A stretch of 64,000 nucleotides of DNA, taken from IMG/VR virus record IMGVR_UViG_3300020037_002148, positions 14,988-78,987 of that record. One strand, given 5' to 3'. Source of the stretch: a virus (lineage: Duplodnaviria; Caudoviricetes). How positions within the stretch are numbered: position 1 is the first letter of the stretch; each line of letters starts with the position of its first letter. This document shows, in pieces, positions 36,101 through 50,966 of this stretch. The notes under the pieces are model-generated. The model saw only the letters and a list, made by a program, of their open reading frames with translations, was not told where the DNA came from and did not search any database. A program made the position numbers and the translations under genes.

Positions 36101-39100
36101 TTCAGAAATCTTTTTAACAATTGGAGATTTCATTAATAACATTACATTATTAAAATTATGACCTACACCAATCATAGCTAAAGCTACAGGAAGTGTTTCA
36201 GTAGTTAAATTAAACAGATTAGCCATTTGCTCTTTAGCATTATCAGTCATTGCTGCTAATAATGTAGCTATACTATCTTGAACTCTTTGAGCATCTTTTT
36301 CATCTACTAATTTATTATTTTCATCTCTTGAATAATTAACAAAAGGTTCTAAATTAATCTTTTCACCTACTTTTCTTTCAATAGTTACTTTATTTTTAAA
36401 TAATATTCCAAAGAGATTATTAAACAAAGCTACTGGTCCAATATTAGCAGCTCCTGTTGAAATAGATATGTCAGCAAGAGTTTTAGAAAGCATATCATGT
36501 ACTCCATATCCTAAATCTTTATTAATTAATCCTTCTCCTTCAAGAGTTTCAATTAAATCTTTAAATAATTTAAGACTTGTAGGTGTATTAGTTATTTTAT
36601 TATTACCATCATTATTAATTAGCTTTCTTTCTAATTCTAATAACATATTATTAGTTTCTCCTTTTGTTAAAGGTTCTATACTATCTATATTACCAGATTG
36701 ATAAGCAATATAATTACTTTCAATTACATCTTTATTTTTATAAGTCCATTCTCCTTTATTGAATATAATTTTATTAATAATGAAAGATTGTTCTAATAAA
36801 GTTAATTCTAAAGATTTAATTTCATCAATGATACCTAATAATTCAGAAGTAGCTGGTTTTACTAATTGTTCTCTAGTAAATACATTTGGTATTTCTTTAA
36901 CTTTTCTTAAACTATTTTCAGCAATAGTTTTTTCTCTGGTTAATTCAATTAATTCTTTACTATTAGTTTTTAAATCATTAAATGTAGAAGATATTTTTTT
37001 ATTATCATAAGCATCAGATAAATATTCATTATATGCTTGTTCTTTAGCTTCTTCCAAAGTTGATTGAAATAAATAACTACCATATATTCCTGTTTTTTTA
37101 TTTAAAACATTTGTATAAGTTTGATTTACTCTTACATATAAAGCATCAATATCAAAGTCAGCTCCAGATAATTCAACAATTTCATTTGGTAACATAATTG
37201 CATTACCATAACTATCAGGTAGTATATCTACTATTTTACAATTAATCATAGAGTGTTTATCTTCTGTTGGAATTCTGACTCCAGATATATATAAAAATTC
37301 TTGAGGTATTTCACCTTTGTGAAATTGATCTGCTGTAAATCCAAATTTCTTTAAGAATCTTTCACTTACTACAATTTCAGAATAATATTCATGTTTTTCT
37401 TTATCATAAACATCATGTCTTAATCTTTGAGAAACAATATTAGCTCCTCTTGGTCTATTATCTCCTTTAGATTGTCTAGTAGTGAATGTTTTAATTACAT
37501 TACCTTCATTATCAATTTCTCTCTCTAATTCACTACCAACACTTGACATTAAAGATAATTTAGAACCAGCAACTTTTTGTTTAAGTGTACCACCACTAAC
37601 AAAAGAAAGGAACATTGATTGAAATTTAGTTTCAATTGCAGGATTATTTAAATTGTATTTAGGTTTGCTACTATTTCCTTGTTGAAATAATTCTAGTTGT
37701 TGAGGATCAGCAGATGATTTTTCAATTGAATCTATAAAACTTTTTAAAAGTAAATCCCATTCAGCATCTCCATTTTCATCTAACATCTCTTTTTTAAGAG
37801 CTTTAAATCCTTTATCAGTTCTTTCAGCTAATTGTTTTTCATAAACATTTAATGCAGTACCAATATTTATTTCTTTATTTTTAAAATAAATTAAAGTTTC
37901 ATTTATTTGTTCAGTAGAAATTAATCTTAAAAATTGAGTAGGATGTGTTATTTGTTTTTTAACTCCATCAGTTTTTTGTTGATCAATTAAACTTGCATTT
38001 GGTACAGAAATTGATGAAATAACTTTTTTACCATTTTCATTTTTATATAAAAAAGGTTGCCCATTACTAATTTCATGTATATTGTATTTACTTCTTTTCC
38101 AAGCACTATCATATACTGCAATAGCATTATTTAATTCCAGTTCATTTAATAAATTATGTTTATATTCTTTACCAGGGATAGCTTCAAATAAATTCTGATA
38201 TTTTTTAGTTAAATAAGTAATATAAGCATTATCAGAAGGTGATGCTTGTAATTTCAAATCAAATAGTTCTTTATGTATTAGAAGAGCTTCTTTAAGATTT
38301 TCTTTTGAATAATTTTTTAATCTTGAAGTTGTTTCTCTTAAAATTGGAGAAATTGAAGTTTTTAAATACCAATCTAAACCAAAACCTTGTGTTTTATTAG
38401 GTTGGTGTTGTGCATTATTATCATAGAGGTAATCATAATCTTCTTTAGTTATTTTTTGTAATTCACCTTCACTATTTATATAATAATTTAAGCCACTATC
38501 AATTCCTTGATATATTTCTTTAATTCTATTATCAATTGATTTAGAATTTAGAATAACTGATAAATGATGAAAAGGAGTATTGAATGTTTGAGCATCTGTA
38601 GTATCAATTTTATTTACTACTTCAGATCTAATAGGGATTATATTTGTAACTCCACTACCATAATTAGAACCACTACCAATCATACCTTTAGCTCTTTTTA
38701 CAAAGTCATTAGCGTTTTTACTAGATGTAGCATTGTCTCCATACATTAAAGAATTAATACCATAAGACATTAAATAGTCATTTAAAAAAGCATTTTTTAA
38801 AGCATTTTTATCTAATTGATTTCCAGAAATAAAAGATTTTGGTAATAAGTTAACTTCACCCTCTTTAAGAAGACCTTTATCTTCTAATAATTTAATATAT
38901 TCGTCAACTTGAAAATCAATAAAATTAGATAATCTTTGTTTAATTTCTTCTTCAGAAAGATCTTTTTCATTTAATTTAGTATTTTTATTAGCAAAGTTAA
39001 ATAACTTTAATCCTTTTGGTATTAAACTATTTAAATTAATTTCTTTTTTTATTGTAGAACCATCCTCTTGTTTTTCATTATAATATAATTCTTCTTTAGA

Positions 39101-42100
39101 TAGGTTTACAACATTATTATTATTATCAATGTCTAAATAGAAATAAGTTCCATCACTATGTGTAAATATTTTAACTGATTTATTACCATTAGTGCCTTCT
39201 ACACCAATATTTTGTAACATATAATGAAATCCTTCATTATATCCATCTTTCTTAAAACCTAAATAATATTCATCTATTTCACTTTGAACAATTTTAATTC
39301 TCTCTACTTCTTGATTATATATAGAATATAAGGAATTCAATCCTTTTTCATTAATTTTACCTTTTTCAATAAAATTATTAAAAGGTAATAATACCATTGG
39401 TATAGTAGATGCACTTTCATATTGAGAAGCTATATAATAAGCATATTTTTGTTTACCTACAACTTTTAAATTATATTTATTATAAGCACTATCAGCTAAA
39501 AGACTTAATCTATATAATATTTTAGCAGTAGTATCAGCATTATTATAACTTTTACCATCACTATCAGAAAATAATCCATAATTTTTAGAAGATACATCTA
39601 CATCTTCACTATCTTCATACTCAGTTACATTAGTTTCTTCTTGTCTAATACCTCCAGCATAAGCCATAGTTAAAGTGGTAAATAAAGTATCAATATCTAC
39701 ATTATTAAATAGAGGATTATGATCTAACACTTGTAAAAAATTATCTACTTGATATTCTTCTGTAAAGAAACTATATAAATAATATGTACCATTTTCTTCA
39801 TTATTTAATACTTTATCTTTAAATGTTTTAACATCTTTTGTTTCAAGATATTCTTTAATTAATTGAACATTATCTTTATCTTTTAATATATTTAATCTTC
39901 TTGAAATATCAGAAGGTGGTGTAATATCAAATATTCTTTTACCTTCTTGATTATTAAATGAAGATGGAATTATACTTGTATCAAATAAAGCTGTACTTTC
40001 AGCTACATCCATTAATTTACCAACAGCTCCTAATAAAGGTTCTGCTTTTTGAGTGGCAGGGTCTATATCATTATATATAGTGTTAGTTCCAAAACTAATA
40101 CCTGTAGTTAATGTTTTTTCAATACCATCTAAAAATTCTAAATTAATAGGTTTTATATCACTTGCTGAAAAATTATTATACCAATTTATTTCTTCATTTG
40201 TAAGTAAATTAGTATTTCCTGTTTCAAATACAAAGTTTATTAGATTGTATTTAATAAATTGTTCAGGTAATTCAATACCTAAATCAGAAAATGAACTTTT
40301 GAAAGTATTCACTAAAGCAATTACAGCTTCACTTTTTTCTTGTGATTTAAGTGATTTTGTATTTTCTAATAAATCTACATATTTTTGTAAAATATTATCT
40401 ATATTACTTTTATATAAATTTGCTTTAAAATCAATTTTAGCTTGTTCTAAATTGTCAATTCTTTTAGAATTCCAATTTCTTTCCCATCTACTAAATACTT
40501 GTTTACCAACATTTCTATTATTAGCATTTAACATTCTGGTTACACCTTCTTTAGAAAATAATACATCTTGTAAATAAGTTCTATTTTTTTCAAAATCAGA
40601 AGATATAAAACTAAATGTAGGTGATTTAGTTAATATTTTATAATATAAAGGACTTAATATTTCATATAATTTAGCAAAATCTTCAACATTAATTTCAGGT
40701 AATTCAAAACTATTATTTTTCTTTAATTCACTATAAATATCTTTATACCATTGATGTGTAAATGCTTTAATTTCAGGAGAAGTATTAGAAACAGAATATA
40801 ATAATCCTAAATGTTTATAAGCTGGAGCACCAACTAACATTTTTGTTAAATTAGAATATAAATGATTTCCGTTAATAGCAAAACTATAATTTTTACTTTT
40901 ATCATTAACTATATAATCATCAAATGGTTTTCCAATGCCAAATAAATCAATATTTGTACTCACTGAGGAAATATATTGCTTTACTTTTTTAGATGCTTTA
41001 TCCCAAGCATGATTAATTTCATTTTTACTTTTTTGAACAATTCCTGTATCATTTAATTCATCATCTTCTAAATCATCACTATCATCTAATTGTTCTTGTA
41101 AAATAGAAGATTCATTTACAAGATTATATAAAGGAAGTCTTTCAAAAACTTCTTGAACTACTATTTCTTGATTTTTTAAATTTCCTAAACTTTTATATAC
41201 ATTTAAATATTTTGAAGCTGTCTTATTTGCTAAATCATCATCTTTAATAGAATCAATTAAATCAGCAATAACTTCATTATTAGGGTTAAATCTCTCTCTA
41301 AATAAATCATAAATATCACTAATTTCATCATCAGTAATAATTTTTGATCCTTTATTTTTTAATATTTTAGCAGCTTCATTTGTAATTGTGTTAATGATAG
41401 CTTCAGATATTGAATAACTTAAATATCCTTTTTTATCTATATATTTACCATTAGTTAATTTAAGTTTATATTCTTGTACTAAAAGTTTATTTACATCAAT
41501 AGAATTATTGACATTTCTAATTACAGGAAATTTCTCTTTAGCATTTTTAAATTTACCTTGATAAATATCTGAGAATAATTGTGTTACAGCTCTTTCATTA
41601 GATGTATTATTTTTATCAAATATCCCTTTTAATAAATTCTTTATTCTTTCAAAGATTCTTCTTAACCATGATTGTGTTACAGATTTTTCAGCTTTCATAT
41701 ACTCCATAAAAGCATCTGCCATTTTTTCTTCTAGCCAAAGATTTTTTAATTCTTGTTGAGATAAATTAATTAAATCAGAAGATGATTCTTTTAAGGTTTG
41801 TAATTGTTCTTTAGTTGGTGTGCCATATAAAGATTCAGCACCATTAAGAGTTTTAATAATTCTACCTCTATCAAGCATTAATCTAAATACAGCATGAAAA
41901 GCTTCATGATATTCAAAACCTTTTACAGATTTACCATTTTTAGTAGCAAGATATATAGTTTTTAATTTACCTATAAATCTACCACCTACTTCACCTTTAG
42001 TTTTAAGGTTTCCGAGTATATCAATTAAATCAGTAACTTCAATAGTTCCATTAGGATTATCTTGAGTTTTAATAGGGAGTATTTGAGATAGATTTTTGAT

Positions 42101-45100
42101 TGCAGTATTATACTCAATTAAATCTTGGGTAGATAATTCTAATAATTTATTAGCACCTTCTGTTTCAGCTTCATTTTGAGCATTTGTAACAATTTGTACA
42201 AATTCTTCTAAACTCAATCCTTTTTCACTAATTTTAGATCTACGATAAACTCTTGAAAGTAAATCTTCTTCTTTTGGTAATTGTTCAAAATTAACACCTA
42301 ATTCTTCTAATTTATCTATATTTGGAGTTTGTTTAACTTCTATTTTAGGTTCTAAAGCAGCTAATTCTGCATCATATTTAGCGTTGATTTTATCTATTTC
42401 AGGTTTTAAAAGTTTTGATAACTCTTCTTTAGAATAACCACCTCTTTCTATAATCCTATTAAGTGTTTGACCTCCTCCCCCAATTTCAGGATTGTTTCCA
42501 CTGTCATTAGAGTAAGCTAATTCCATTAACTCTCTTGAAACATATTCATCTACCCCTAAAACTTTTACACTATTTTTAGATGTCTGTTTTTCACTTGTTC
42601 CAAACTTTTTTAAAGCTTCTTGTCTTCTTCTTTTTATATCAGCTTCAATAAGTTGCTTATGAGTTTTGTTTTCAGGATTATCTAATTTTTTACCTTCAAA
42701 ATAAACATTATCACCCTTAACTTCATAATTTGTATTACCTACTTTTCCTTGTGGTAAATCTGCATTTAAGTTTAATTCTATTTCAGATTGAGTAGTAGAT
42801 GTAGGTTGTTCTTCTAATGCTTTTAGTTCTGCAGAAGGAGTAGGAGAACTTTCAACTACTTGTATTATTGTTTTAGCTTCTTCTTGAGCTTCTAATTTAA
42901 CAGTATTTTCATTAAATAAATCTTCCTGTTCTTTATTTTGTATTTGTTCTTTAGCTTTTTGCTGTTGATTTATTTCTTCTTGTTGTTTTTCATTTCTAAG
43001 TCTTATATTTTCTCTAGTAGAAGTAATTTCTTTTACTTGTGTTCTATCAGGTCTTAAATATAAATTATATCCTAACTTCTTTTTAGTTACAAGATTTTCT
43101 AAAGATTGTTGATTATTTTTATTTAATAATACATTAGTATAGAATCCGTTTATTGTAGCATTTACGTTAGTTGCTTTTCTAAGTTTACCTAATACTGAAT
43201 ATTGGCTATCTTTTAAAATTAAAGAAGCAATTTCTTCATTTAATTTATTTTCATTTAAGACTTCATGTCTAAATTTTTTAATTTCTTCAATTTTTTGACC
43301 TAAAGTAATTTCTCCTTTTTCAAATCTTTTATTAATTGGGTCTAATTCTTCTTTACCTTTAGCAAAAGATTTAAAGAAGTTTTGACCATCAAAATAAATT
43401 GAAGAAGCTATAGTAGTTTTCTTCCCATTAATCTCTAATTCAAATGATAATTGCCCTATTTTATCAGAATAAGTAGATATGAAAGGAGTTACTTTAACTT
43501 TTTCTGTTTTATTTAATCCTGTTACAGATAAGAATAAATCAAAATTTTTAATATCTTCTTTAGGGTCTAATTCTTTTTTAGTTTTATCTTTATATTCTTC
43601 ATAATAAGAACTCAAACCTTCACTCATAATTTGAAGTGCTGGTAATAATGCTTTTTCATTATTTAAAAAGTTAACTATAAATTCTTCATTATTATCTAAT
43701 CCTTTTAATTTAGAAATAGTTTCATTTGAAGTGAAAATAGGTTGAATATATCCATTAGAATTAAATACTAATAAAGAAAATAAACTCCCTTTAGTGCTTA
43801 TAGCGTTTTCTTTTTTATATGATACTAAATTTTGGATAGCTTTTCTTTCTTCACTATTTTCTTTATCATCTCTATCTCTCCATAATACAGTACCATCTTC
43901 ATTTCTTTCTAATTTACCATTAATAATATTTACAAAATATAATTTTGAAAATCCCTGACCATCTCCAGTAGATTTACCAAAAATAACTATATTTTTATCT
44001 TCACCATTTACTTTAATAGTTTTAGTAGCAGCTTTAGTTAATACATTATCTGGATCATCAAGAGTGTCTTCTATTCTAGTTTCTATTATATTTCCATCTT
44101 TATCTTTATTATCAGTAAAATTCATCTCTATTTGAGATGAAAAAGAATTAAGATTAATCTGACCATTTGTTAAATTATTAAAATCTTCAAATGATATATC
44201 ACCTCTTTGAGTGATAGTATTCAATTTATTAGAAAAACTATTTAATTCTGTTAAATATTGACCTAACACTTTTCTATCTTCAATAGTAGAAATTAAATCT
44301 GAAGGAAATAACATTCCTAATACAATCTCTAAATAACCATCTTCTTTTAATTTACTAAAATCAATTGGACTCCATTTATCATTTATTTTAAGATAAATTT
44401 GATTTGGCATTTGGAATCCACCAATAAGTTCTCCATCTACTTTCATTTGAAAGTTAAATGGTTTATTATTACCTCTTACACCACTTAATGAAATTACATT
44501 TTGATTATCTTTTTCTTTTAAATCTGCTACAGCTTGTTCAATAGATTTAGGATTTTCTAAATCTGTTAAAGTAAAAGTAATTCTTTTTCTAAGATCTTTT
44601 TCATTTGGATTATTAGCAATTGAAGCTAGTTTATTTTCTTGTTGTTCATTATTAAATAAACTAAATAATTCATTTATATTAGAGAAATATGGTTTTTTAC
44701 CATCTTCTTTCTTTTGTTTTTCAGCTTCTTTTTTAGTTTGTTGTAATTCTATAATTCTTTCTTTTGCTTTAGCAATTAAAGTATTCACATTAACTTTCAA
44801 TGTATCATTAACAGTTTCTTTATATTGTTTTAAATGAGCTACTAAAGCATCAAGTGTATCTAAATCATCTTCTTGATTGATTATTGTACTTACTTTTGAA
44901 ATATATTCTTTCTGAGCTTTTACTTGCTCACTATCATCTTCTTTAACTTGTAAATCAACATTATTTTCAATTTCTTTTTCTGTATCTTTATCTATTTCAA
45001 GTCCTTGATTATGTAAAAATGTTTTAGCTTTTTCTTTTAAAAATTTTATTGTAGCAGCTCTTTCATTTCTTTTAACTTCTTTATCGAATTTCTCTCTACC

Positions 45101-47554
45101 ATTTTTAGTATTGAGATGATTATAAACAGCAATTAAATCTTTTCTTTTTCTTTGAATATTAGCTAAATCATCAATAGATTGTTTAATTGTATCTTTATCA
45201 AAGATATTTTCACTCAAATGATTTTCAATATCTTTCTGTAATTGATTTAATTCTTTATGAGCTTGTAAAAAATTATCTACATTTTCAAAATTATTGTCTA
45301 TTTTAAATCCTAATTTTGATAATTTATTTTTTGAGTTATTTATTTCATCTAATTTAGATTGAATTGAAGATTTTAATTCTTTAAGTTTATTTTTAGATTT
45401 ATCTCTTAAATCTATTAGGCTTTCTTGATCTGATATAGAAATACCATCTATATCTTCAAGCATTTTTAATTCTTTATTATAATTTTTAATTTCTTTAGCT
45501 AATTCTTTAGTAATTAAACTATTTTGAGTACTATTAAAATTAAGTAATTCTTTTAACTTATCACTATTTACAGAATCATTTTTACTTTTAGATAATTTAT
45601 CATTAATTAAACCAACTAAACTATCTTCTCTACTATCTAAATCATTAGTAGTGTACATTAAATGATGAATAGCTTCGTTAAATAACCTAGCATCTTTATC
45701 ATTAAAATTTCTAACAGGAGCTACTTTAGATGCTAATTCTTTAGTAGATTGAAAGTTATCTACTTTTTTATTAAATTGTTCAATAACTTTATTTTTTCTT
45801 TCAGTGAGTTCATCATTACTTAATGCTTTTTCATTTGCATCTAATTTATCATAACCAAATTGTTTAGCAAAATCAGCATTATCCATGTCTTTAATCATTG
45901 CTGCATATTGCTCTTTAGATTCATTTAATAACCCTACATTATCTCTACTTTTAACAAATGAAAACATAGCATCACTTTCATGATTCTTAGCTTCAAAAAA
46001 ATCTCCATTTTCAAGAGCTTCATCTCTTAATCTATTAGATGTAAGTATTGTAGAATTACTTTGTATTTGATTTTGTACATTATTAATATTAACTTTACTT
46101 GCTTGTTTAATAGCTGATTTAATAGCTTGTTTTTCAGCACTTTGTTCTTCAAAAGCTTCAAATACACCACCTTCAAATGAAGCTATAACTTTATTACCAA
46201 AACCTTTTACATTTTTAGTTTTACCAGTAGCAATACCCATTCCAGGTATTCCTAAAGCACCTATAATAAATCCAATTCCTGCGTCTTCACTACCATAAGT
46301 ATCTTTGAAGTTTTTACCAAAGGATTCTATTAAATTAAAACTATCATTATAAGCTGTAGCATCAAATTTCTTTTTAATGTAATCTTGACCAATAGCTTGA
46401 AACTCTCCTTGAAGAGCTTCTTCATTCATTTCTGTTAAAGGATTCTTTAATATTTTTGCTGTTGTATAAAGAGCTTTTCTTGTTTTAGAAGCAGTTTCAT
46501 AAGCAGCTTCTAAACCTCCTCTTAAAGCATAATCTTTAGCTAAATCTTTAGCTTCTGTATCTACAGCACCTTTACCAAATAATTTTAAATCAGTAGAAAG
46601 ACCTTTACCGAATATATTTTTAAATTGAATAAAGTTGCCAACTGATAATAATGCCATATTAGCACCAAATATTAAATTAGCAGTTTTTTTAATTTCTCCA
46701 TCAGCCATTGCTAAAGCATTAGCATCAGGTTCTACACCATATTGTTGTTTATATTGTTCTGCATAATTTTTTCTAGCAGTATCAAGAAAGTTTCTTGCTT
46801 CTACACCAGCTTCATAACCAGCACCTACAGCAGCAGATTTTACTATATCTTTACCAAGTGCTTTTAATTCAGCAGAACTTGCTTCTTTGCCAAAAAGAGA
46901 AAATATTTTTTTAGCTCTACTCATTAAAGAAGCAGTTTCAGCAGCTTGTACAACTCCTCCAGCTCCAAAAGTAGCACCAGTTAAAGCAGATAAAGCCATT
47001 TCAGATAATACAGCACCTACAGAGAAAGACATTCCTCCAAGTACACCATCTCCCCAGAATTGAGCATTATTTAATTTAGAGAAAAATCCTTCTTGTTCTT
47101 GAGCTTTTGTAGCATAAATAGGTAGTGCACTATCTAAATCTTTAGATTGTTTATCCATCCATCTATGAAAATCATTATCATATAATTTAGTCATATCACC
47201 ATTTATGATAGCATTTGGAATAGAAACTAATCCTCCTATAATAGTATCACCAACAGTAATTGCTGTTTTACCTGCAAATTTAATTAATGCATTTGCAGTA
47301 GCATCTAAATTAGTTTGTTGTAAAGCTCTTTGATCTTGAGAATATTGAAAATTTGTAGTACTTGGCATTAATTCTCTATTACTAAAGCTTTCAAAATCAT
47401 CTTTAGTCATAGGAATACTTGTCTGATTTGGTACTTGTACTTTATCAGAAGCATATTCTTCATTTTTAGAAGGTTTAATGATTAAACCTGTATTTGGATC
47501 AACACCTTGTACTGTTGATATTTCTTTTAGTATGTTGTCTAAAAAACCTGGCAT
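33179..47554 (-). CDS. giant virion DNA-dependent RNA polymerase (crAss/phi14:2 gp66-like), polyvalent
   Basis: Catalytic SGADFDID (37145-37159) preceded by RIPTEDKHSM; zincin HEAFH (41894-41908) plus EEKMAD; SLOG-like domain at about 35390-35890; 4791 aa. Confidence 0.9.
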   Translation of the reverse strand: MPGFLDNILKEISTVQGVDPNTGLIIKPSKNEEYASDKVQVPNQTSIPMTKDDFESFSNRELMPSTTNFQYSQDQRALQQTNLDATANALIKFAGKTAITVGDTIIGGLVSIPNAIINGDMTKLYDNDFHRWMDKQSKDLDSALPIYATKAQEQEGFFSKLNNAQFWGDGVLGGMSFSVGAVLSEMALSALTGATFGAGGVVQAAETASLMSRAKKIFSLFGKEASSAELKALGKDIVKSAAVGAGYEAGVEARNFLDTARKNYAEQYKQQYGVEPDANALAMADGEIKKTANLIFGANMALLSVGNFIQFKNIFGKGLSTDLKLFGKGAVDTEAKDLAKDYALRGGLEAAYETASKTRKALYTTAKILKNPLTEMNEEALQGEFQAIGQDYIKKKFDATAYNDSFNLIESFGKNFKDTYGSEDAGIGFIIGALGIPGMGIATGKTKNVKGFGNKVIASFEGGVFEAFEEQSAEKQAIKSAIKQASKVNINNVQNQIQSNSTILTSNRLRDEALENGDFFEAKNHESDAMFSFVKSRDNVGLLNESKEQYAAMIKDMDNADFAKQFGYDKLDANEKALSNDELTERKNKVIEQFNKKVDNFQSTKELASKVAPVRNFNDKDARLFNEAIHHLMYTTNDLDSREDSLVGLINDKLSKSKNDSVNSDKLKELLNFNSTQNSLITKELAKEIKNYNKELKMLEDIDGISISDQESLIDLRDKSKNKLKELKSSIQSKLDEINNSKNKLSKLGFKIDNNFENVDNFLQAHKELNQLQKDIENHLSENIFDKDTIKQSIDDLANIQRKRKDLIAVYNHLNTKNGREKFDKEVKRNERAATIKFLKEKAKTFLHNQGLEIDKDTEKEIENNVDLQVKEDDSEQVKAQKEYISKVSTIINQEDDLDTLDALVAHLKQYKETVNDTLKVNVNTLIAKAKERIIELQQTKKEAEKQKKEDGKKPYFSNINELFSLFNNEQQENKLASIANNPNEKDLRKRITFTLTDLENPKSIEQAVADLKEKDNQNVISLSGVRGNNKPFNFQMKVDGELIGGFQMPNQIYLKINDKWSPIDFSKLKEDGYLEIVLGMLFPSDLISTIEDRKVLGQYLTELNSFSNKLNTITQRGDISFEDFNNLTNGQINLNSFSSQIEMNFTDNKDKDGNIIETRIEDTLDDPDNVLTKAATKTIKVNGEDKNIVIFGKSTGDGQGFSKLYFVNIINGKLERNEDGTVLWRDRDDKENSEERKAIQNLVSYKKENAISTKGSLFSLLVFNSNGYIQPIFTSNETISKLKGLDNNEEFIVNFLNNEKALLPALQIMSEGLSSYYEEYKDKTKKELDPKEDIKNFDLFLSVTGLNKTEKVKVTPFISTYSDKIGQLSFELEINGKKTTIASSIYFDGQNFFKSFAKGKEELDPINKRFEKGEITLGQKIEEIKKFRHEVLNENKLNEEIASLILKDSQYSVLGKLRKATNVNATINGFYTNVLLNKNNQQSLENLVTKKKLGYNLYLRPDRTQVKEITSTRENIRLRNEKQQEEINQQQKAKEQIQNKEQEDLFNENTVKLEAQEEAKTIIQVVESSPTPSAELKALEEQPTSTTQSEIELNLNADLPQGKVGNTNYEVKGDNVYFEGKKLDNPENKTHKQLIEADIKRRRQEALKKFGTSEKQTSKNSVKVLGVDEYVSRELMELAYSNDSGNNPEIGGGGQTLNRIIERGGYSKEELSKLLKPEIDKINAKYDAELAALEPKIEVKQTPNIDKLEELGVNFEQLPKEEDLLSRVYRRSKISEKGLSLEEFVQIVTNAQNEAETEGANKLLELSTQDLIEYNTAIKNLSQILPIKTQDNPNGTIEVTDLIDILGNLKTKGEVGGRFIGKLKTIYLATKNGKSVKGFEYHEAFHAVFRLMLDRGRIIKTLNGAESLYGTPTKEQLQTLKESSSDLINLSQQELKNLWLEEKMADAFMEYMKAEKSVTQSWLRRIFERIKNLLKGIFDKNNTSNERAVTQLFSDIYQGKFKNAKEKFPVIRNVNNSIDVNKLLVQEYKLKLTNGKYIDKKGYLSYSISEAIINTITNEAAKILKNKGSKIITDDEISDIYDLFRERFNPNNEVIADLIDSIKDDDLANKTASKYLNVYKSLGNLKNQEIVVQEVFERLPLYNLVNESSILQEQLDDSDDLEDDELNDTGIVQKSKNEINHAWDKASKKVKQYISSVSTNIDLFGIGKPFDDYIVNDKSKNYSFAINGNHLYSNLTKMLVGAPAYKHLGLLYSVSNTSPEIKAFTHQWYKDIYSELKKNNSFELPEINVEDFAKLYEILSPLYYKILTKSPTFSFISSDFEKNRTYLQDVLFSKEGVTRMLNANNRNVGKQVFSRWERNWNSKRIDNLEQAKIDFKANLYKSNIDNILQKYVDLLENTKSLKSQEKSEAVIALVNTFKSSFSDLGIELPEQFIKYNLINFVFETGNTNLLTNEEINWYNNFSASDIKPINLEFLDGIEKTLTTGISFGTNTIYNDIDPATQKAEPLLGAVGKLMDVAESTALFDTSIIPSSFNNQEGKRIFDITPPSDISRRLNILKDKDNVQLIKEYLETKDVKTFKDKVLNNEENGTYYLYSFFTEEYQVDNFLQVLDHNPLFNNVDIDTLFTTLTMAYAGGIRQEETNVTEYEDSEDVDVSSKNYGLFSDSDGKSYNNADTTAKILYRLSLLADSAYNKYNLKVVGKQKYAYYIASQYESASTIPMVLLPFNNFIEKGKINEKGLNSLYSIYNQEVERIKIVQSEIDEYYLGFKKDGYNEGFHYMLQNIGVEGTNGNKSVKIFTHSDGTYFYLDIDNNNNVVNLSKEELYYNEKQEDGSTIKKEINLNSLIPKGLKLFNFANKNTKLNEKDLSEEEIKQRLSNFIDFQVDEYIKLLEDKGLLKEGEVNLLPKSFISGNQLDKNALKNAFLNDYLMSYGINSLMYGDNATSSKNANDFVKRAKGMIGSGSNYGSGVTNIIPIRSEVVNKIDTTDAQTFNTPFHHLSVILNSKSIDNRIKEIYQGIDSGLNYYINSEGELQKITKEDYDYLYDNNAQHQPNKTQGFGLDWYLKTSISPILRETTSRLKNYSKENLKEALLIHKELFDLKLQASPSDNAYITYLTKKYQNLFEAIPGKEYKHNLLNELELNNAIAVYDSAWKRSKYNIHEISNGQPFLYKNENGKKVISSISVPNASLIDQQKTDGVKKQITHPTQFLRLISTEQINETLIYFKNKEINIGTALNVYEKQLAERTDKGFKALKKEMLDENGDAEWDLLLKSFIDSIEKSSADPQQLELFQQGNSSKPKYNLNNPAIETKFQSMFLSFVSGGTLKQKVAGSKLSLMSSVGSELEREIDNEGNVIKTFTTRQSKGDNRPRGANIVSQRLRHDVYDKEKHEYYSEIVVSERFLKKFGFTADQFHKGEIPQEFLYISGVRIPTEDKHSMINCKIVDILPDSYGNAIMLPNEIVELSGADFDIDALYVRVNQTYTNVLNKKTGIYGSYLFQSTLEEAKEQAYNEYLSDAYDNKKISSTFNDLKTNSKELIELTREKTIAENSLRKVKEIPNVFTREQLVKPATSELLGIIDEIKSLELTLLEQSFIINKIIFNKGEWTYKNKDVIESNYIAYQSGNIDSIEPLTKGETNNMLLELERKLINNDGNNKITNTPTSLKLFKDLIETLEGEGLINKDLGYGVHDMLSKTLADISISTGAANIGPVALFNNLFGILFKNKVTIERKVGEKINLEPFVNYSRDENNKLVDEKDAQRVQDSIATLLAAMTDNAKEQMANLFNLTTETLPVALAMIGVGHNFNNVMLLMKSPIVKKISELSQSYNKTIQSKQDYDDSKGNRELQKKVESIFQLEGESEFEGDLNYQTLLDSLKNKEVIKEEFSKGITFLEEQSTGYKQRTIKNASADATIAIAVDFTSAGERLTKSSVEGQSKKYIPIDIKDSLEVTPEIVDNIVEQLNETKAKTLNIAGNGIYTMKGKYTQEQLDDYVYELLQAVLSSPDLENPIERIRTGGQTGLDEAGAKAGFKLNLPTLILAPKGWTFRNESGQDISNEQQFKERFGDYQEQKDLFSQEEKPVSNQKAILKRISNEYFHYKKASTVFSNLQNLLQLIKGFKSTFAESEKFITALNNLGWSVSENGLDIVKNDKPTDKFYKNYKDTTKIIGNGVGDIFEKDKFLKQSIKTALALTKLSEKYFISQTPTAKKTREDILTLFKDYKAGNVDFQSNLRKHYLSYLTVMAYAESVKNTDDKLPKIEEFLLTPLEEIAKDNTKENNELQTNFLQIIEYNYKNGIKNDFLEFLEIKNIDYLKKQANKNTLFGYRFHGFGANSRALKNPDIISSIISSFNDLYFAENNNILERDPEIRRINTLKTKFAKDMFKYLVVKDGLMFQNQSFIKAIDPILFTETSNALDKVQELFSKMSSSKEYIETFGMSKEELNLDFIIKFGLNQNNYFDLKSQKIDVLRKVIDEKWIKDNKIESEDFVNDNESDTNEKEELVLEDNYPIFFDSKNNTLVVNQFARITKGMKPEQKSQIKKENKKFILRDEIVIFKKIAKTYKSGDKIIPYSKIGFPIITYLSGKNSARIPLKLTAVQDSIQVDGSWINFQISPEGKVLELSNSSKESLKGDIYYGDLFNNTIYEIINNDAKLKTYKNGRERLVNIAKAIANQFENGYIEGTKALYNQHIILGSGEISSLTNSIKDQLDMVLSPEQTEKVKMNMFNKTKEKAKDETEVRLNFINLINQYSAITKVTLEGTKNRTIEELERVANNFMVKAGKSKQEIEDKTKKCYSLKS

Positions 47555-47586
47555 ATTTTTATTTTAAATTAAGGTATAAATATAAT

Positions 47587-47612
47587 AAAGGTATCATTTT
47601 CAGATACCTTTT
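47587..47612 (-). terminator. putative hairpin/terminator upstream of the RNAP gene
   Basis: AAAGGTATC / GATACCTTT perfect 9-bp stem in the intergenic gap. Confidence 0.4.
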
Positions 47613-47658
47613 TAATTGTTTTAAATAATGATTTTGATTACATCAAATTAATTTTTAA

Positions 47659-48150
47659 TTATTTAATATAATATTCTACAGTTGCATTTTTATTTGAAGG
47701 GTATTTTAAATCTAATTGTTGTTGAGCATAAGAAGCATTCCCATTACTTTCTTTTAATTTTTGTAAATAAAATTCTGTTTGAGGACCTCCTCTAAAATGT
47801 ACAAGTTTTTCAATCATTGATTTTTGTGAAGGATCTACTTTATATTTAGTTATAATATTTTTAGCTTCACTTTCTAATACATTTGGAGCATACCATTCAT
47901 TATAAAAACTATCTTGTAAAACATGATTTTTTAAAAATTGTTGAGGTGTTAAATTGGGATTTCCTGAAAAACTTTTTATTTTATTCCCCCATTCACTCCA
48001 GATAAATTGATATTTTCCATAAGCATTACCATTCACAGCACCATAACCATTATCAGGTTGCCCTTTACTTTCTAAATTAACAATGTCTTTATCTCTTTGT
48101 TTACCCTCAGAAGTTATTGAAATCTGATTATTGACTGCTGAGGGTTGGTA
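47659..48150 (-). CDS. lysozyme-like (muramidase/transglycosylase) domain, probably a -1 frameshift extension of 48114-50966
   Basis: Frame is open upstream of the GTG 48036 and reads IVNLESKG...YGAVN..AYGKYQF. The putative catalytic Glu lies upstream of any ATG/GTG/TTG start. Confidence 0.7.
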   Translation of the reverse strand, partial: YQPSAVNNQISITSEGKQRDKDIVNLESKGQPDNGYGAVNGNAYGKYQFIWSEWGNKIKSFSGNPNLTPQQFLKNHVLQDSFYNEWYAPNVLESEAKNIITKYKVDPSQKSMIEKLVHFRGGPQTEFYLQKLKESNGNASYAQQQLDLKYPSNKNATVEYYIK

Positions 48151-48156
48151 AAATTT
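48103..48156 (-). promoter_or_regulatory. candidate -1 programmed ribosomal frameshift signal
   Basis: In-frame slippery heptamer A AAT TTT (48156-48150); 4-nt spacer; stem ACCCTCAG (48145-48138) / CTGAGGGT (48110-48103). Confidence 0.65.
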
Positions 48157-50966
48157 CCAGTAGAAGGTATTATAGGTCTAGTTTCTTTAACTACTCTGTC
48201 AAGATACTTATCATATATTTGACTTGATACAACTTCACCAAGACTTTGAGACATATTCATAATTTGACTAATTAAAAACTCTTTAGTTCCTTGCTCACCT
48301 TTTTGTGCTTTTAAACTTGCAATAATTTGAGTATCTTTCATTAATCTCTCCATATTTAAAGTAATATTAGTTACTAAACCAATATTATTAGTATGGAAAT
48401 TAATTCTATTATCTTTAGTTGATATTCCATTTATATCTGCACTATCATATAACTCTATTAAATAGTCTCCTTTAGAGATACCGTCTACACCTCTATTACC
48501 AAAATCTCTTTTAATAACAATATCTCCTTGTTCTTTTAATCCTGGATAAGTGTATCTCATATATCCAGCATTATTAGAAAGACCATCATGTATTTTCTTA
48601 TTCTCCTGAATCATAGTTCTACTTTCAACACCTAATACATCATCTGCAATTCTTTCTAAAGAATTATCTCCTGCTATTTTTATACCTACAGTGGTTAACT
48701 CATCATTACTAAGATCAATATTTTTAGATTTATTTTTTCTACCTAAATCTAAACCACTTACAGTAAGACACGCATAAAGCTCTCCATCAATATTTTGAAA
48801 AGTAACTGTTTCTACAGATTCTACATTATCTTCTCCAAGTTTCTTTTGTTTTTTTAATCTTTGAGCTTTAAAGTTATCTAATTGTTCTGCTGTTAATTGT
48901 TCTCCTGTTCTTACATAAAATATATTACCACTACTCCCTTGCTGACTTATTCTTTCATCTAAAGAAGATTTTAATTGAGCTTTATATTTAGCTGCGTCAT
49001 CAGCAGATTTACCACTTGAAGTAGTAGCAGCATCTATATAATAAACAGTCCCTCTACCAAGTCTTTGTATCTCTTTTAATTGAGCTAATTTATCATTAAA
49101 GAGAGTTAATGATTTAGTATTATTAACTGCTAATTTTTCTTTATACTCTTTATACGCATATGCCTCAGGACTTAATTGTGAAGGATTTGTTCCTTGACCA
49201 AATCTACTTCTCTCTCCTACAGGAGTATATGGTTTTTTACCTGAATTTAAATCATCTATTTCTTTTTGTAGTTCTAATTCTGATTTGGTTATAGAAAGAT
49301 TATTTTTCTTTTTATATTCATCAAAAGTAAATGTTCCTTTTTCTTTTTCAGTATTATAAGCAGTACCTGTTAATTGAGTCCAGAAATCATTTAATTCTTG
49401 AAGAGTCCCATTATGACTATCTAAAGTAATTTGTTGAGATTTATATGCTTTTTCCATTACATCTAACAATCCAGCTATTTTAGATTGTTGTTCAGCAGGC
49501 ATTGCTTTAAATGTTTTAGTATCTCTTATTTTAGAAAAATCTGCTAAATCAACCTTAGCACCACCATAAGGTGTATTAGTTATAGTAGCTAAATTACCAT
49601 TTTTAGTATATTCATTAATAATTTCTTTTGTTTTATAAGCTATATCAGATTTAGTTCCAAGTTTATCATCTCCTTGAATATAAGATTTTAAAATATTATC
49701 TTTTGTATCTCTTATTGTCTGAGTTAATTGTAAAACATCTTTTGATGTCATTTGTTGTTTTTCTATAAACCCTGAAGCATCTTTAATATCACCTAATTCT
49801 GTAAAATCAGGATCATAAAAATCTATTTCACCAGCATTAATTAAACTTTTAATAGAAAAATCTTCTTCTGTAGGCTTCTCCATTGATTTTTTAAATGCTT
49901 CAAAAGCATAATCATTTTTTATAATACTGATTTTATGAGCTACATCATTTCTTCTTTTAAGTTTAGAAACATCTTCCACCATTCCATCTAATAAATCTTC
50001 ACCATAAGTATTTTTTAATTGATTATAGCTTTTTATAGAATTTACTTTACCGATATTATTTAATATTTCTTTTTTAGTAGAAATTAATTGTTTTTTTTCA
50101 GTATCATCTTTAGATTTAGATATTTGATCGTCAATTAATCTTAATTTTTCTTCATTAACTTTATTAAGTTGTCCTGTAAATAAACTCCAATTATCATTAT
50201 TTACTCCTTGTGAGAATAAATCTAAATGACTTTGTTCATTAATCCAACCTGTATATCTTGGATCTTTAGATATTAAAGGTTTTACTAAACTAAATATTTC
50301 ATCAGGGTCTAATTTATTTGAATGTGCTTCATCTAAATAAAAATAATTACCATCAGTATATATATGATTTCCAGGAGCTAATTCTGATAATCCTTTAACT
50401 TCACCATAACTTGTATTTTCATTTACAGCTATTTCTTTAGCAAAATCTAAGGATGCTTTTACTATATCTTGATAACCTATTAAATTAGTAGCAGGAGCAC
50501 CATTTAATTCTCCTGTAGATACAGCTCCTTTATATCTTGAAATTACTTCTTGTTTTTTAATTTGTTTATAAGTATCTGGAAGATTAGATTTTTCAATATC
50601 ATCCATAGATTTAGCTATATCAGTTTTATTTTGCATTAATTGATACTCTACTCCACCAGGTTGTTTTTCTCTTCCTATTTGTTGTAAATAACTTTGAAGG
50701 GCTTTATTTCCTTTATTAGTTCCTACTGTAGCATAAGTCTTAGCTAAATCAGCTTCAGCTTGTTGTCTATTTAATCTAAGTTGCTTTTTAGTCATAGGAT
50801 CTGTTGCTAGATTAGAAGAATCTATAGGAGCATTTAAAGCAGCTTGAGCTAATTGATAACCTTGTTCTTGATTAGTTAATAAATTATCTACTTGTTTCCA
50901 GTCTGGAGACCAAATAGGAATATCCCAATTTACAGGAGCATAATTTGTATATCTTGTAGTACCCAT
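48114..50966 (-). CDS. virion cargo/ejection protein
   Basis: 950 aa, helical, located between the cargo-1-like gene and the RNAP as in crAss-like gene order. Confidence 0.6.
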   Translation of the reverse strand: MGTTRYTNYAPVNWDIPIWSPDWKQVDNLLTNQEQGYQLAQAALNAPIDSSNLATDPMTKKQLRLNRQQAEADLAKTYATVGTNKGNKALQSYLQQIGREKQPGGVEYQLMQNKTDIAKSMDDIEKSNLPDTYKQIKKQEVISRYKGAVSTGELNGAPATNLIGYQDIVKASLDFAKEIAVNENTSYGEVKGLSELAPGNHIYTDGNYFYLDEAHSNKLDPDEIFSLVKPLISKDPRYTGWINEQSHLDLFSQGVNNDNWSLFTGQLNKVNEEKLRLIDDQISKSKDDTEKKQLISTKKEILNNIGKVNSIKSYNQLKNTYGEDLLDGMVEDVSKLKRRNDVAHKISIIKNDYAFEAFKKSMEKPTEEDFSIKSLINAGEIDFYDPDFTELGDIKDASGFIEKQQMTSKDVLQLTQTIRDTKDNILKSYIQGDDKLGTKSDIAYKTKEIINEYTKNGNLATITNTPYGGAKVDLADFSKIRDTKTFKAMPAEQQSKIAGLLDVMEKAYKSQQITLDSHNGTLQELNDFWTQLTGTAYNTEKEKGTFTFDEYKKKNNLSITKSELELQKEIDDLNSGKKPYTPVGERSRFGQGTNPSQLSPEAYAYKEYKEKLAVNNTKSLTLFNDKLAQLKEIQRLGRGTVYYIDAATTSSGKSADDAAKYKAQLKSSLDERISQQGSSGNIFYVRTGEQLTAEQLDNFKAQRLKKQKKLGEDNVESVETVTFQNIDGELYACLTVSGLDLGRKNKSKNIDLSNDELTTVGIKIAGDNSLERIADDVLGVESRTMIQENKKIHDGLSNNAGYMRYTYPGLKEQGDIVIKRDFGNRGVDGISKGDYLIELYDSADINGISTKDNRINFHTNNIGLVTNITLNMERLMKDTQIIASLKAQKGEQGTKEFLISQIMNMSQSLGEVVSSQIYDKYLDRVVKETRPIIPSTGNFTNPQQSIIRFQ

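What the first reader, a model, noticed from the sequence alone, without database searches (positions are those of the whole stretch)
47659..48156. Candidate -1 ribosomal frameshift adds a lysozyme domain to a virion cargo protein
Seen: the lysozyme-like frame contains its putative catalytic motif (IVNLES...YGAVN...AYGKYQF) upstream of the first usable start codon, so it cannot be made intact by ordinary initiation. Eleven codons before the stop of the 950-aa ORF is an in-frame X XXY YYZ heptamer (A AAU UUU, codons N938-F939). It is followed after 4 nt by a GC-rich 8-bp stem (ACCCUCAG/CUGAGGGU, extendable by AGU/ACU) that encloses the 0-frame stop. The -1 frame is stop-free from the slip site to 47659. 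Predicted products are 950 aa and about 1102 aa. Established: -1 frameshifts set stoichiometry in phage tail-chaperone and capsid genes. Inference: only a fraction of ejected cargo subunits carry a peptidoglycan hydrolase. I am not aware of this being described for crAss-like ejection proteins.
Basis: partly seen in the sequence, partly recalled or inferred. Interest (0 to 1): 0.86.

Follow-up and report, generated by a model that had tools for sequence, protein, structure and literature searches.

The report
Conserved frameshift adds wall-cutting enzyme
In a small group of uncultured crAss-like phages, a conserved ribosome-slipping signal at the end of a probable injected virion protein appears to attach a cell-wall-cutting enzyme domain to a fraction of the copies, a recoding event I could not find described for this phage order.

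Summary

- **Signal in the window.** The 950-aa ORF (48114-50966, - strand) carries an in-frame A_AAT_TTT heptamer 11 codons before its stop. A 4-nt spacer follows, then an 8+3 bp hairpin that holds the stop.
- **Extension frame.** The -1 frame is open for 163 codons to 47659. It encodes a phiKZ-gp144-like lytic transglycosylase domain whose invariant Glu lies 12 codons upstream of the first canonical start.
- **Not an assembly error.** Three other assemblies are identical across the junction.
- **Conservation.** All 12 further DNA-distinct lineages fetched (body proteins 26-91% identical) keep the heptamer in frame. The preceding codon varies (G/I/V/E/S) but always ends in A.
- **Structure.** All keep a hairpin 3-6 nt downstream. 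Seven of 12 pairs show compensatory changes, which no shuffle reached.
- **Open frame.** All keep an open -1 frame encoding the domain.
- **Module swapping.** Three divergent enzyme subtypes have been exchanged exactly at the cassette, and every recombinant kept the -1 arrangement.
- **Caveats.** Half the lineages, but not the window, also have an ATG or GTG in the hairpin loop, so a free enzyme may be made there as well. The virion-cargo role rests on gene order. No reads, RNA or peptides were examined.

Mechanistically this is a canonical -1 frameshift in a new context.

The parts
48114..50966 (-). 0-frame ORF of 950 aa (P0002). It sits at the cargo-protein-2 position between the cargo-1-like gene and the giant RNA polymerase gene.
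   Evidence: Searches give the ORF. Searches give the synteny. One search gives the language-model look-alike to crAss_CARGO2 (0.92). Searches find no Pfam match.
48150..48156 (-). Slippery heptamer A_AAT_TTT in X_XXY_YYZ register (codons N938, F939).
   Evidence: Searches show it in the window. It is in frame and identical in all 13 DNA-distinct lineages, with the preceding codon GGA, ATA, GTA, GAA or TCA. N938 and F939 are invariant in 23 proteins.
48146..48149 (-). 4-nt spacer ACCA between the heptamer and the hairpin.
   Evidence: The spacer is 3-6 nt in the relatives.
48103..48145 (-). Stimulatory hairpin: ACCCTCAG-c-AGT, a 19-nt loop, then ACT-t-CTGAGGGT.
   Evidence: Searches give the fold. 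A covariance model finds it only once in the window on this strand. Seven of 12 pairs carry compensatory changes and 93.8% of cells are canonical pairs, against 34-50% when the pairing is slid.
48114..48116 (-). 0-frame TAA stop, at the 3' edge of the hairpin loop.
   Evidence: The stop lies inside the loop in all relatives.
47659..48150 (-). -1 frame extension of 163 codons plus stop (P0001). Residues 16-163 form the lytic-transglycosylase-like domain.
   Evidence: Searches give the frame. One search finds 122 homologues whose matches begin at residue 20-24. One search matches phiKZ gp144 at E 6e-8. One search gives pLDDT 88.5. Searches give the fold matches.
48070..48072 (-). Codon of the invariant Glu (extension residue 27, residue 966 of the trans-frame product), the candidate catalytic acid.
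   Evidence: It is invariant in 34 aligned sequences. It aligns with the Glu of the IES motif of gp144. It lies in the first helix of the model.
48034..48036 (-). First canonical start (GTG) in the -1 frame. A 125-aa product from here would lack the Glu and helix 1.
   Evidence: Gene callers produce this truncated ORF.

Best explanation
**What it is.** This is a programmed -1 ribosomal frameshift site.

**Proposed mechanism (inferred from the anatomy).**
- Ribosomes translating the 950-aa gene reach A_AAU_UUU with tRNA-Asn in the P site and tRNA-Phe in the A site.
- They are held up by the G+C-rich hairpin 4 nt downstream, and a fraction slip back one base.
- Those that do not slip terminate 11 codons later inside the hairpin loop and give the 950-aa protein.
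- Those that slip read on for 163 codons and give a 1102-aa protein whose C-terminus is a phiKZ-gp144-like lytic transglycosylase domain.

**Proposed role (inferred).**
- The gene lies between the muzzle and cargo-1 genes and the virion RNA polymerase gene. The protein is therefore probably packaged and ejected.
- The minor long form would then bring a peptidoglycan-cutting activity to the cell wall at infection, as the lytic transglycosylase domain of T7 gp16 does.

**Shown here.**
- The signal, its conservation and its covariation.
- The coding status and fold of the extension.
- The absence of a canonical start before the catalytic Glu in the window.
- The swapping of enzyme modules at the cassette.

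**Not shown.** That slipping occurs, its efficiency, enzyme activity, and virion location.
For: 1. **Heptamer.** It is in frame in all 13 DNA-distinct lineages. The upstream codon differs in amino acid (G, I, V, E, S) but always ends in A. N938, F939 and P942 are invariant in an otherwise hypervariable tail across 23 proteins. All 25 homologues end in ...NF.xP plus a short tail.
2. **Hairpin.** It starts 3-6 nt downstream in every lineage when each is folded independently (-13 to -27 kcal/mol, z -3.6 to -8.1). The CCCTC/GAGGG base is conserved and the top covaries. Seven of 12 pairs carry double changes and 93.8% of cells are paired. None of 1000 shuffles reaches either value, and slid controls give 34-50%.
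3. **Open -1 frame.** It runs 159-183 codons in every lineage, against an 18% per-codon stop rate and a 39-codon maximum elsewhere.
4. **Homology upstream of the start.** Matches to 122 proteins begin at extension residue 20-24, before the first start at residue 39. The invariant Glu is residue 27.
5. **No start codon.** Six of the 12 lineages tabulated, including the window, have no ATG, GTG or TTG in the -1 frame between the upstream stop and that Glu.
6. **Recombinants keep the arrangement.**
   - W and L010: body 90% identical, extension 30%.
   - W and L018: body 88% identical, extension 24%. L018's extension is 91% identical to that of L012, whose body is 31% identical to W.
   - Nucleotide identity between W and L018 falls from 0.83-1.00 (30-nt windows) to 0.23-0.33 downstream of the heptamer.
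7. **Enzyme assignment.** The profile matches phiKZ gp144 (3bkh) at E 6e-8 over the IES...GxxQF motif. The model has pLDDT 88.5. The top fold matches are MltE, MltF, gp144 and goose-type lysozyme. VIA-align gives Z 8.6, rmsd 3.6 over 130 residues to gp144.
8. **Context.** The upstream genes are the crAss muzzle protein (E 2.7e-41) and a weak cargo-1 match. The same gene order holds in the relatives and in PhiCrAss001, gp44 to gp47 (PMC10172136).
Against: - No direct evidence of the trans-frame product.
- A heptamer alone is common in this A+T-rich genome (22% per 21 codons).
- The 4-nt spacer is at the short end of what I recall for known sites.
- A_AAU_UUU is not among the best-characterised bacterial slip sequences (own knowledge). 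Translation in the presumed Bacteroidota hosts is little studied for frameshifting.
- In 7 of 13 lineages an ATG or GTG lies in the -1 frame 1-7 nt before the 0-frame stop. The enzyme could there also, or instead, be made as a free protein by coupled reinitiation.
- The heptamer's nucleotide conservation is partly what A+T-biased codon use would give once Asn-Phe is fixed.
- The covariation alignment was fitted to the model's structure, although the independent folds agree with it.
- The domain and the body protein match no Pfam model.
Confidence: 0.85

Rival explanations
1. The enzyme domain is a separate gene, translated on its own. Initiation would be at a non-canonical start in the window (ATT or ATA in the loop), or at the loop ATG or GTG in other lineages. 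Alternatively, ribosomes that terminate at the 0-frame stop would reinitiate. The hairpin would then regulate that coupling rather than frameshifting.
For: In 7 of 13 lineages an ATG or GTG lies in the -1 frame 1-7 nt upstream of the 0-frame stop, which is a classic overlapping stop-start geometry. Gene callers annotate 154-172-aa ORFs from these codons.
Against: - The window and five other lineages have no ATG, GTG or TTG before the catalytic Glu. Callers there give truncated ORFs of 52-125 aa that lack it.
- Reinitiation does not explain the invariant in-frame heptamer, nor the constant A in the preceding codon.
- It also does not explain why the -1 frame stays open from the heptamer rather than from the stop.
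- The start codons lie inside a stable hairpin.
Confidence: 0.08
2. The hairpin and the conserved Asn-Phe-x-x-Pro tail serve another purpose, such as RNA stability, a protein-level signal at the C-terminus of the body protein, or a recombination site. The downstream ORF would make only the truncated, non-catalytic product from its first canonical start.
For: - The cassette is clearly a recombination breakpoint.
- The 5' arm also encodes the conserved tail.
- A 125-aa ORF from the GTG exists.
Against: - The region upstream of that GTG is homologous to 122 proteins and holds the invariant Glu and helix 1 of the fold.
- The compensatory changes show selection on pairing, not on peptide sequence.
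- No T-run follows the stem, and the terminator scan does not call it.
Confidence: 0.04
3. A real frameshift mutation or an assembly error has broken what should be an in-frame fusion, so the gene is a pseudogene.
For: A single window cannot exclude a 1-nt error in the A3T4 run.
Against: Three further JGI assemblies are 100% identical over 621 nt. Twelve further DNA-distinct lineages keep the same -1 offset, and none of the 25 homologues is fused in frame.
Confidence: 0.01

Closest known systems
Programmed -1 frameshifts that give C-terminally extended phage structural proteins: lambda G/GT tail chaperone, T7 capsid 10A/10B, Listeria phage capsid and tail proteins, and Ig-like domains appended by frameshift (own knowledge)
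   Same: An X_XXY_YYZ heptamer near the 3' end of a late gene with a downstream structure. The result is a major short form and a minor long form that carries an extra domain.
   Different: - The gene is a crAss-like cargo-position protein.
- The appended module is an enzyme domain, not a chaperone, decoration or Ig domain.
- The cassette also marks a module-exchange boundary.
- I found no paper reporting frameshifting in Crassvirales.
T7 gp16 internal core (ejection) protein with an N-terminal lytic transglycosylase domain (own knowledge; T7 ejection proteins are discussed in PMC10172136)
   Same: A large protein packaged in a podovirus head and ejected ahead of the DNA carries a lysozyme-fold transglycosylase to open the peptidoglycan.
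   Different: In T7 the domain is N-terminal, in frame and present on every copy. Here it is C-terminal, in the -1 frame, and presumably on a minority of copies. No sequence relationship between the carrier proteins was found.
phiKZ gp144 endolysin / lytic transglycosylase (PDB 3bkh, 3bkv, 9xps)
   Same: It is the nearest solved sequence relative of the extension (profile E 6e-8, aligned over the IES...GxxQF motif). The fold match is Z 8.6, rmsd 3.6 over 130 residues.
   Different: gp144 is a free 260-aa enzyme with an N-terminal peptidoglycan-binding domain. Identity is only about 13% in the structural alignment.
PhiCrAss001 cargo protein 2 (gp46; Pfam PF25712 crAss_CARGO2)
   Same: Same position in the gene order muzzle, cargo 1, X, RNA polymerase. 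The nearest language-model clusters carry PF25712 (score 0.92, 175 of 256 features).
   Different: There is no HMM match for any of 23 family members and no tblastn match to deposited phages. This protein is 950 aa, against 60 kDa for gp46. The paper mentions no frameshift, lysozyme or peptidoglycan.

Membership tests
Programmed -1 ribosomal frameshift site | Slippery heptamer X_XXY_YYZ in the 0 frame | tested here: met
   A_AAT_TTT lies at 48156..48150 in register. It is in register in all 13 DNA-distinct lineages.
Programmed -1 ribosomal frameshift site | Stable RNA structure a few nucleotides downstream | tested here: met
   A hairpin starts 3-6 nt downstream in all lineages, at -13 to -27 kcal/mol. 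Pseudoknot potential was not examined.
Programmed -1 ribosomal frameshift site | Conservation of the signal, with covariation in the structure, across relatives | tested here: met
   Seven of 12 pairs carry compensatory changes and no shuffle of 1000 reaches the observed values. The heptamer is invariant while the preceding amino acid varies.
Programmed -1 ribosomal frameshift site | A -1 ORF that is coding, overlaps the 0-frame end and cannot be made whole by its own start | tested here: met
   Searches show this for the window and five other lineages. In seven lineages a loop ATG or GTG exists.
Programmed -1 ribosomal frameshift site | A trans-frame protein is observed, and shifting depends on the heptamer and structure | not testable with these tools
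   Needs a reporter assay, mass spectrometry or ribosome profiling.
Lysozyme-like lytic transglycosylase (phiKZ gp144-like) | Catalytic Glu at the end of the first helix (E-S/G motif), followed by a G-x-x-Q motif | tested here: met
   E27, G45, Y47 and Q48 are invariant in 34 sequences. They align to IES...GWFQF of gp144.
Lysozyme-like lytic transglycosylase (phiKZ gp144-like) | Lysozyme-like alpha-helical fold | tested here: met
   The model has pLDDT 88.5 and pTM 0.80. The top Foldseek rows are all MltE, MltF, gp144 or g-type lysozyme, with TM about 0.5 and probability up to 0.99 but E only 0.075. VIA-align gives Z 8.0-8.7 to gp144, Cj0843, Slt and T4 lysozyme. These Z values are moderate.
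Lysozyme-like lytic transglycosylase (phiKZ gp144-like) | Match to a curated family model (Pfam SLT or Transglycosylas) | tested here: not met
   P0001 has no Pfam or PHROGs match. One homologue gives a sub-threshold PF06737 match. I therefore describe it as gp144-like by profile, not as a member of a Pfam family.
Lysozyme-like lytic transglycosylase (phiKZ gp144-like) | Peptidoglycan-cleaving activity | not testable with these tools
   Needs a zymogram or muropeptide analysis.
Crassvirus cargo protein 2 (PF25712) | Match to the family model | tested here: not met
   No hit at E up to 1 for P0002 or for any of 23 homologues.
Crassvirus cargo protein 2 (PF25712) | Position between the cargo protein 1 gene and the virion RNA polymerase gene, downstream of the muzzle gene | tested here: met
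   The gene order in PhiCrAss001 comes from PMC10172136.
Crassvirus cargo protein 2 (PF25712) | Presence in virions | not testable with these tools
   No isolate exists. Only a language-model look-alike is available.

The most novel reading that the evidence does not exclude
The cassette is both a recoding signal and a conserved 'socket'. Its roughly 25 invariant nucleotides would act as a homologous-recombination junction through which divergent wall-degrading modules are exchanged between phages whose carrier proteins differ. The frameshift would fix the dose of ejected enzyme per virion. If so, this is the first recoding event known in crAss-like phages, the first identification of how any of them could breach peptidoglycan at entry, and a case in which a frameshift site organises modular evolution.
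Probability: 0.45. Interest if true: 0.78.

Novelty: new member of a known kind. Interest (0 to 1): 0.66.

Why it matters
- **Entry mechanism.** How crAss-like phages get their large protein cargo and DNA across the Bacteroidota cell wall is unknown. The structural atlas of PhiCrAss001 names cargo proteins but no wall-degrading activity. This finding points to a specific candidate enzyme.
- **Dosing.** It offers a testable mechanism, translational frameshifting, for setting how many copies carry the enzyme.
- **Annotation.** It explains a recurrent artefact: gene callers report truncated 52-125-aa 'hypothetical' ORFs here, or 154-172-aa ORFs from loop start codons.
- **Frameshifting resource.** The cassette comes with natural compensatory mutants, which makes it a useful subject for studying frameshifting on Bacteroidota ribosomes.
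- **Evolution.** The exchange of three enzyme subtypes exactly at the signal bears on how phage genomes shuffle modules.

Tried and rejected
- **Deposited phages.** Megablast and tblastn of the region, the extension, a subtype c extension and the body protein found nothing.
- **IMG/VR.** Peptide and DNA pattern scans found no relatives.
- **Family libraries.** Pfam and PHROGs gave no match for either protein. Rfam gave no match in 47300-48400.
- **PDB by single sequence.** The search gave only spurious protein A repeats. The profile search was needed.
- **Profile search for body homologues.** It added no new family members.
- **Large proteins carrying the enzyme domain.** These have the domain at their N- or C-terminus and share nothing else with this window's proteins. 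They are not in-frame versions of this gene.
- **Cassette alignment.** MAFFT misplaced three sequences. A covariance model was used instead. Its alignment also picked up four reverse-strand hits, which I removed before counting.
- **Tools unavailable.** A structure prediction of the 950-aa body was not accepted.
- **Transcriptional slippage.** I considered and rejected it on general knowledge, because A3T4 is too short a homopolymer run.
- **Intrinsic terminator.** Rejected for the frameshift hairpin, which has no T tail and is not called by the scan.

Full report
**Setting.** The window is bases 14988-78987 of a 78,987-bp linear IMG/VR virus record, estimated 77% complete. Its G+C content is 25%.

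The - strand carries these genes in order:
- a 1467-aa protein matching the crassvirus muzzle protein (PF25731, E 2.7e-41);
- a 1078-aa protein with a sub-threshold match to the crassvirus cargo protein 1 domain (PF25725, E 5e-5);
- the 950-aa ORF of the finding (P0002, 50966..48114);
- a gap of about 560 nt;
- a 4791-aa giant ORF (47554..33179).

PhiCrAss001 has the same order: gp44 muzzle, gp45 cargo 1, gp46 cargo 2, gp47 onward RNA polymerase. There gp45 and gp46 were found in virions and are proposed to be ejected (PMC10172136).

**The observation.**
- The heptamer A_AAT_TTT lies at 48156..48150 in the X_XXY_YYZ register (N938-F939), with 11 codons to the TAA.
- The spacer is the 4 nt ACCA.
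- The stem ACCCTCAG/CTGAGGGT is extended by AGT/ACT across a C/T mismatch. The stop sits at the 3' edge of the 19-nt loop.
- The -1 frame is open for 172 codons stop to stop (48177..47659). That is 163 codons after the slip, giving products of 950 and 1102 aa.
- The first ATG, GTG or TTG in that frame is the GTG at 48036, extension codon 39.

Taken alone this is only suggestive. In-frame heptamers of this form occur at 1.2% of codons in this genome, which gives a 22% chance in a 21-codon overlap. The hairpin is z -1.9 against dinucleotide shuffles.

**The -1 frame is coding, and its catalytic part precedes any start.**
- Stops occur at 18% per codon in the -1 frame of this genome's ORFs, and the longest open run there is 39 codons.
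- An exhaustive phmmer search found 122 proteins at E < 1e-3. Their matches begin at extension residue 20-24, well before residue 39.
- In an alignment of 34 sequences, E27, G45, Y47, Q48, Q79 and G121 are invariant.
- A profile of that alignment matches the phage phiKZ gp144 lytic transglycosylase (3bkh, 9xps) at E 6e-8. It aligns E27 with the Glu of gp144's IES motif and GKYQF with GWFQF.
- The AlphaFold model is confident (pLDDT 88.5, pTM 0.80) and places E27 in the first helix.
- Foldseek's top rows are all lytic transglycosylases or goose-type lysozymes (MltE, MltF, gp144), with TM about 0.5 and weak E-values.
- VIA-align gives Z 8.6, rmsd 3.6 over 130 residues to gp144, and similar values to Cj0843, Slt and T4 lysozyme.
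- No Pfam or PHROGs model matches. I therefore call the domain gp144-like by profile and fold, not a member of a curated family.

**Not an assembly error.** The truncated 125-aa ORF occurs on other JGI contigs from three samples. The 621 nt around the junction are identical in all of them.

**Relatives.**
- The 950-aa protein has 25 homologue clusters of 902-1037 aa. They run from 96% identity down to about 40% identity confined to the N-terminal third.
- None contains the enzyme domain in frame. All end with ...NF-x-x-P and a short variable tail.
- N938, F939 and P942 are invariant, although the surrounding C-terminal region is hypervariable.
- I fetched DNA for 12 further DNA-distinct lineages.
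- In every one the heptamer AAATTTT is in register 31-61 nt before the stop. The preceding codon is GGA, ATA, GTA, GAA or TCA. That is five different amino acids, always with A in the third position.
- In every one the -1 frame is open for 159-183 codons and encodes the E...G-x-Y-Q domain.
- The same gene order holds throughout: muzzle, cargo 1, this gene, gap, giant ORF.

**The hairpin covaries.**
- Folded independently, 12 of the 13 DNA-distinct cassettes form a hairpin beginning 3-6 nt after the heptamer (-13 to -27 kcal/mol, z -3.6 to -8.1 against shuffles). L018 folds the same way.
- The base CCCTC/GAGGG is conserved and the top changes in step. Examples are AGCAG/CTGCT, TACAGGG/CCCTGTA, AAGG/CCTT, AATA/TATT, CCCCAACAG/CTGTTGGGG and ATCCTC/GAGGAT.
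- I built a covariance model from nine sequences. It finds one hit on the coding strand per locus and only this site in the window.
- On its alignment of the 12 coding-strand rows, 93.8% of cells are canonical pairs and 7 of 12 pairs show changes on both sides.
- None of 1000 column shuffles reached either value. Sliding the 3' partner by 1-3 columns gives 34-50% pairing.
- That alignment is fitted to the structure, but the independent folds agree with it.
- No T-run follows the stem, and the terminator scan does not call it. Rfam has no match.

**Start codons.** This is the main caveat.
- The window, the four other subtype a lineages and L005 have no ATG, GTG or TTG in the -1 frame between the upstream stop and the catalytic Glu.
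- All five subtype c lineages, including L018, have an ATG or GTG 4 nt before the 0-frame stop. L010 and L017 have an ATG 7 nt before it.
- In those lineages a free enzyme could be made by coupled reinitiation, in addition to or instead of frameshifting.
- Yet they keep the heptamer and hairpin unchanged. This is most simply explained if frameshifting operates in all of them.

**Module exchange at the cassette.**
- The extensions fall into three subtypes that share only 21-34% identity: VESKG...GKYQF, QEGNYNS...GTHGKYQF and VESNNS...AKGQYQI.
- Subtype does not follow the body protein:
  - W and L010: body 90% identical, extension 30%.
  - W and L016: body 43%, extension 68%.
  - L006 and L012: body 78%, extension 25%.
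  - L009 and L012: body 41%, extension 79%.
  - L018: body 88% identical to W, but its extension is 91% identical to that of L012, whose body is 31% identical to W.
- Between W and L018, nucleotide identity is 0.83-1.00 in the 30-nt windows up to the heptamer, 0.60 in the 30 nt that begin at it, and 0.23-0.33 beyond.
- Three different enzyme subtypes thus sit on nearly identical bodies, and each recombinant preserved the -1 arrangement. This argues for selection on the arrangement itself. It also suggests the conserved cassette serves as the crossover point.

**Mechanism and role.**
- The best reading is a canonical tandem-slippage -1 frameshift. It would yield a major 950-aa form and a minor 1102-aa form with a C-terminal lytic transglycosylase.
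- By position, and by a language-model look-alike to crAss_CARGO2 clusters (0.92), the carrier is probably an ejected cargo protein. It has no HMM support for that family.
- The long form would then act on peptidoglycan during entry, as the in-frame transglycosylase domain of T7 gp16 does (own knowledge).
- The efficiency of shifting, the enzyme activity and the virion location are all untested.

**Novelty.**
- Frameshifting that appends a domain to a phage structural protein is a known kind of event.
- Full-text searches for frameshifting with crAss-like, Crassvirales or crAssphage, and for frameshifting with lytic transglycosylase in virions, found nothing relevant.
- The PhiCrAss001 atlas mentions neither frameshift nor lysozyme nor peptidoglycan.
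- The clade has no deposited or IMG/VR relatives that the tools would show and only 25 protein clusters. It is a rare, uncultured group.
- I rate it a new member of a known kind, well supported and of good interest to phage biologists.

The scan had noted this same stretch once before from another window (e1-5846143), without follow-up.

Noticed in passing
window 47587-47611 (- strand), between the extension stop (47659) and the ATG of the 4791-aa ORF (47554): A 23-nt hairpin, AAGGTATCTGAAAATGATACCTT, occurs once in the window with none expected by chance. It is exactly identical, loop included, in loci whose flanking proteins are only 30-45% identical (L006, L009, L010, L012, L016, L017). The scan calls it terminator-like on both strands. 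Conservation of the loop suggests more than a terminator, perhaps a regulatory site ahead of the virion RNA polymerase gene.
   Followed up: partly
window 47659-48036, and L005:6036-6308, L006:6375-6533, L008:6309-6548, L013:4057-4215: Public gene calls for the enzyme domain are truncated ORFs of 125, 90, 52, 79 and 52 aa that begin inside the fold. In other lineages 154-172-aa ORFs are called from ATG or GTG codons in the hairpin loop. This is a systematic annotation artefact of the frameshift arrangement.
   Followed up: yes
proteins P0007, P0008, P0016, P0017, P0021, P0026, P0027, P0038 and P0073, P0076, P0104, P0105, P0117: The same gp144-like domain is fused in frame to the N-terminus of unrelated 1100-1394-aa proteins, or to the C-terminus of unrelated 870-1327-aa proteins, in other metagenomic sequences. 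None of these shares anything else with this window's proteins. They may be virion-associated lysins of other phage groups.
   Followed up: partly
window 50966 (end of the 1078-aa ORF, start of the 950-aa ORF), and the same junction in L002-L017: The cargo-1-like gene and the 950-aa gene overlap by one base (stop and start share position 50966) in the window. They overlap by one base or abut in the relatives, which suggests tight translational coupling along this late operon.
   Followed up: no
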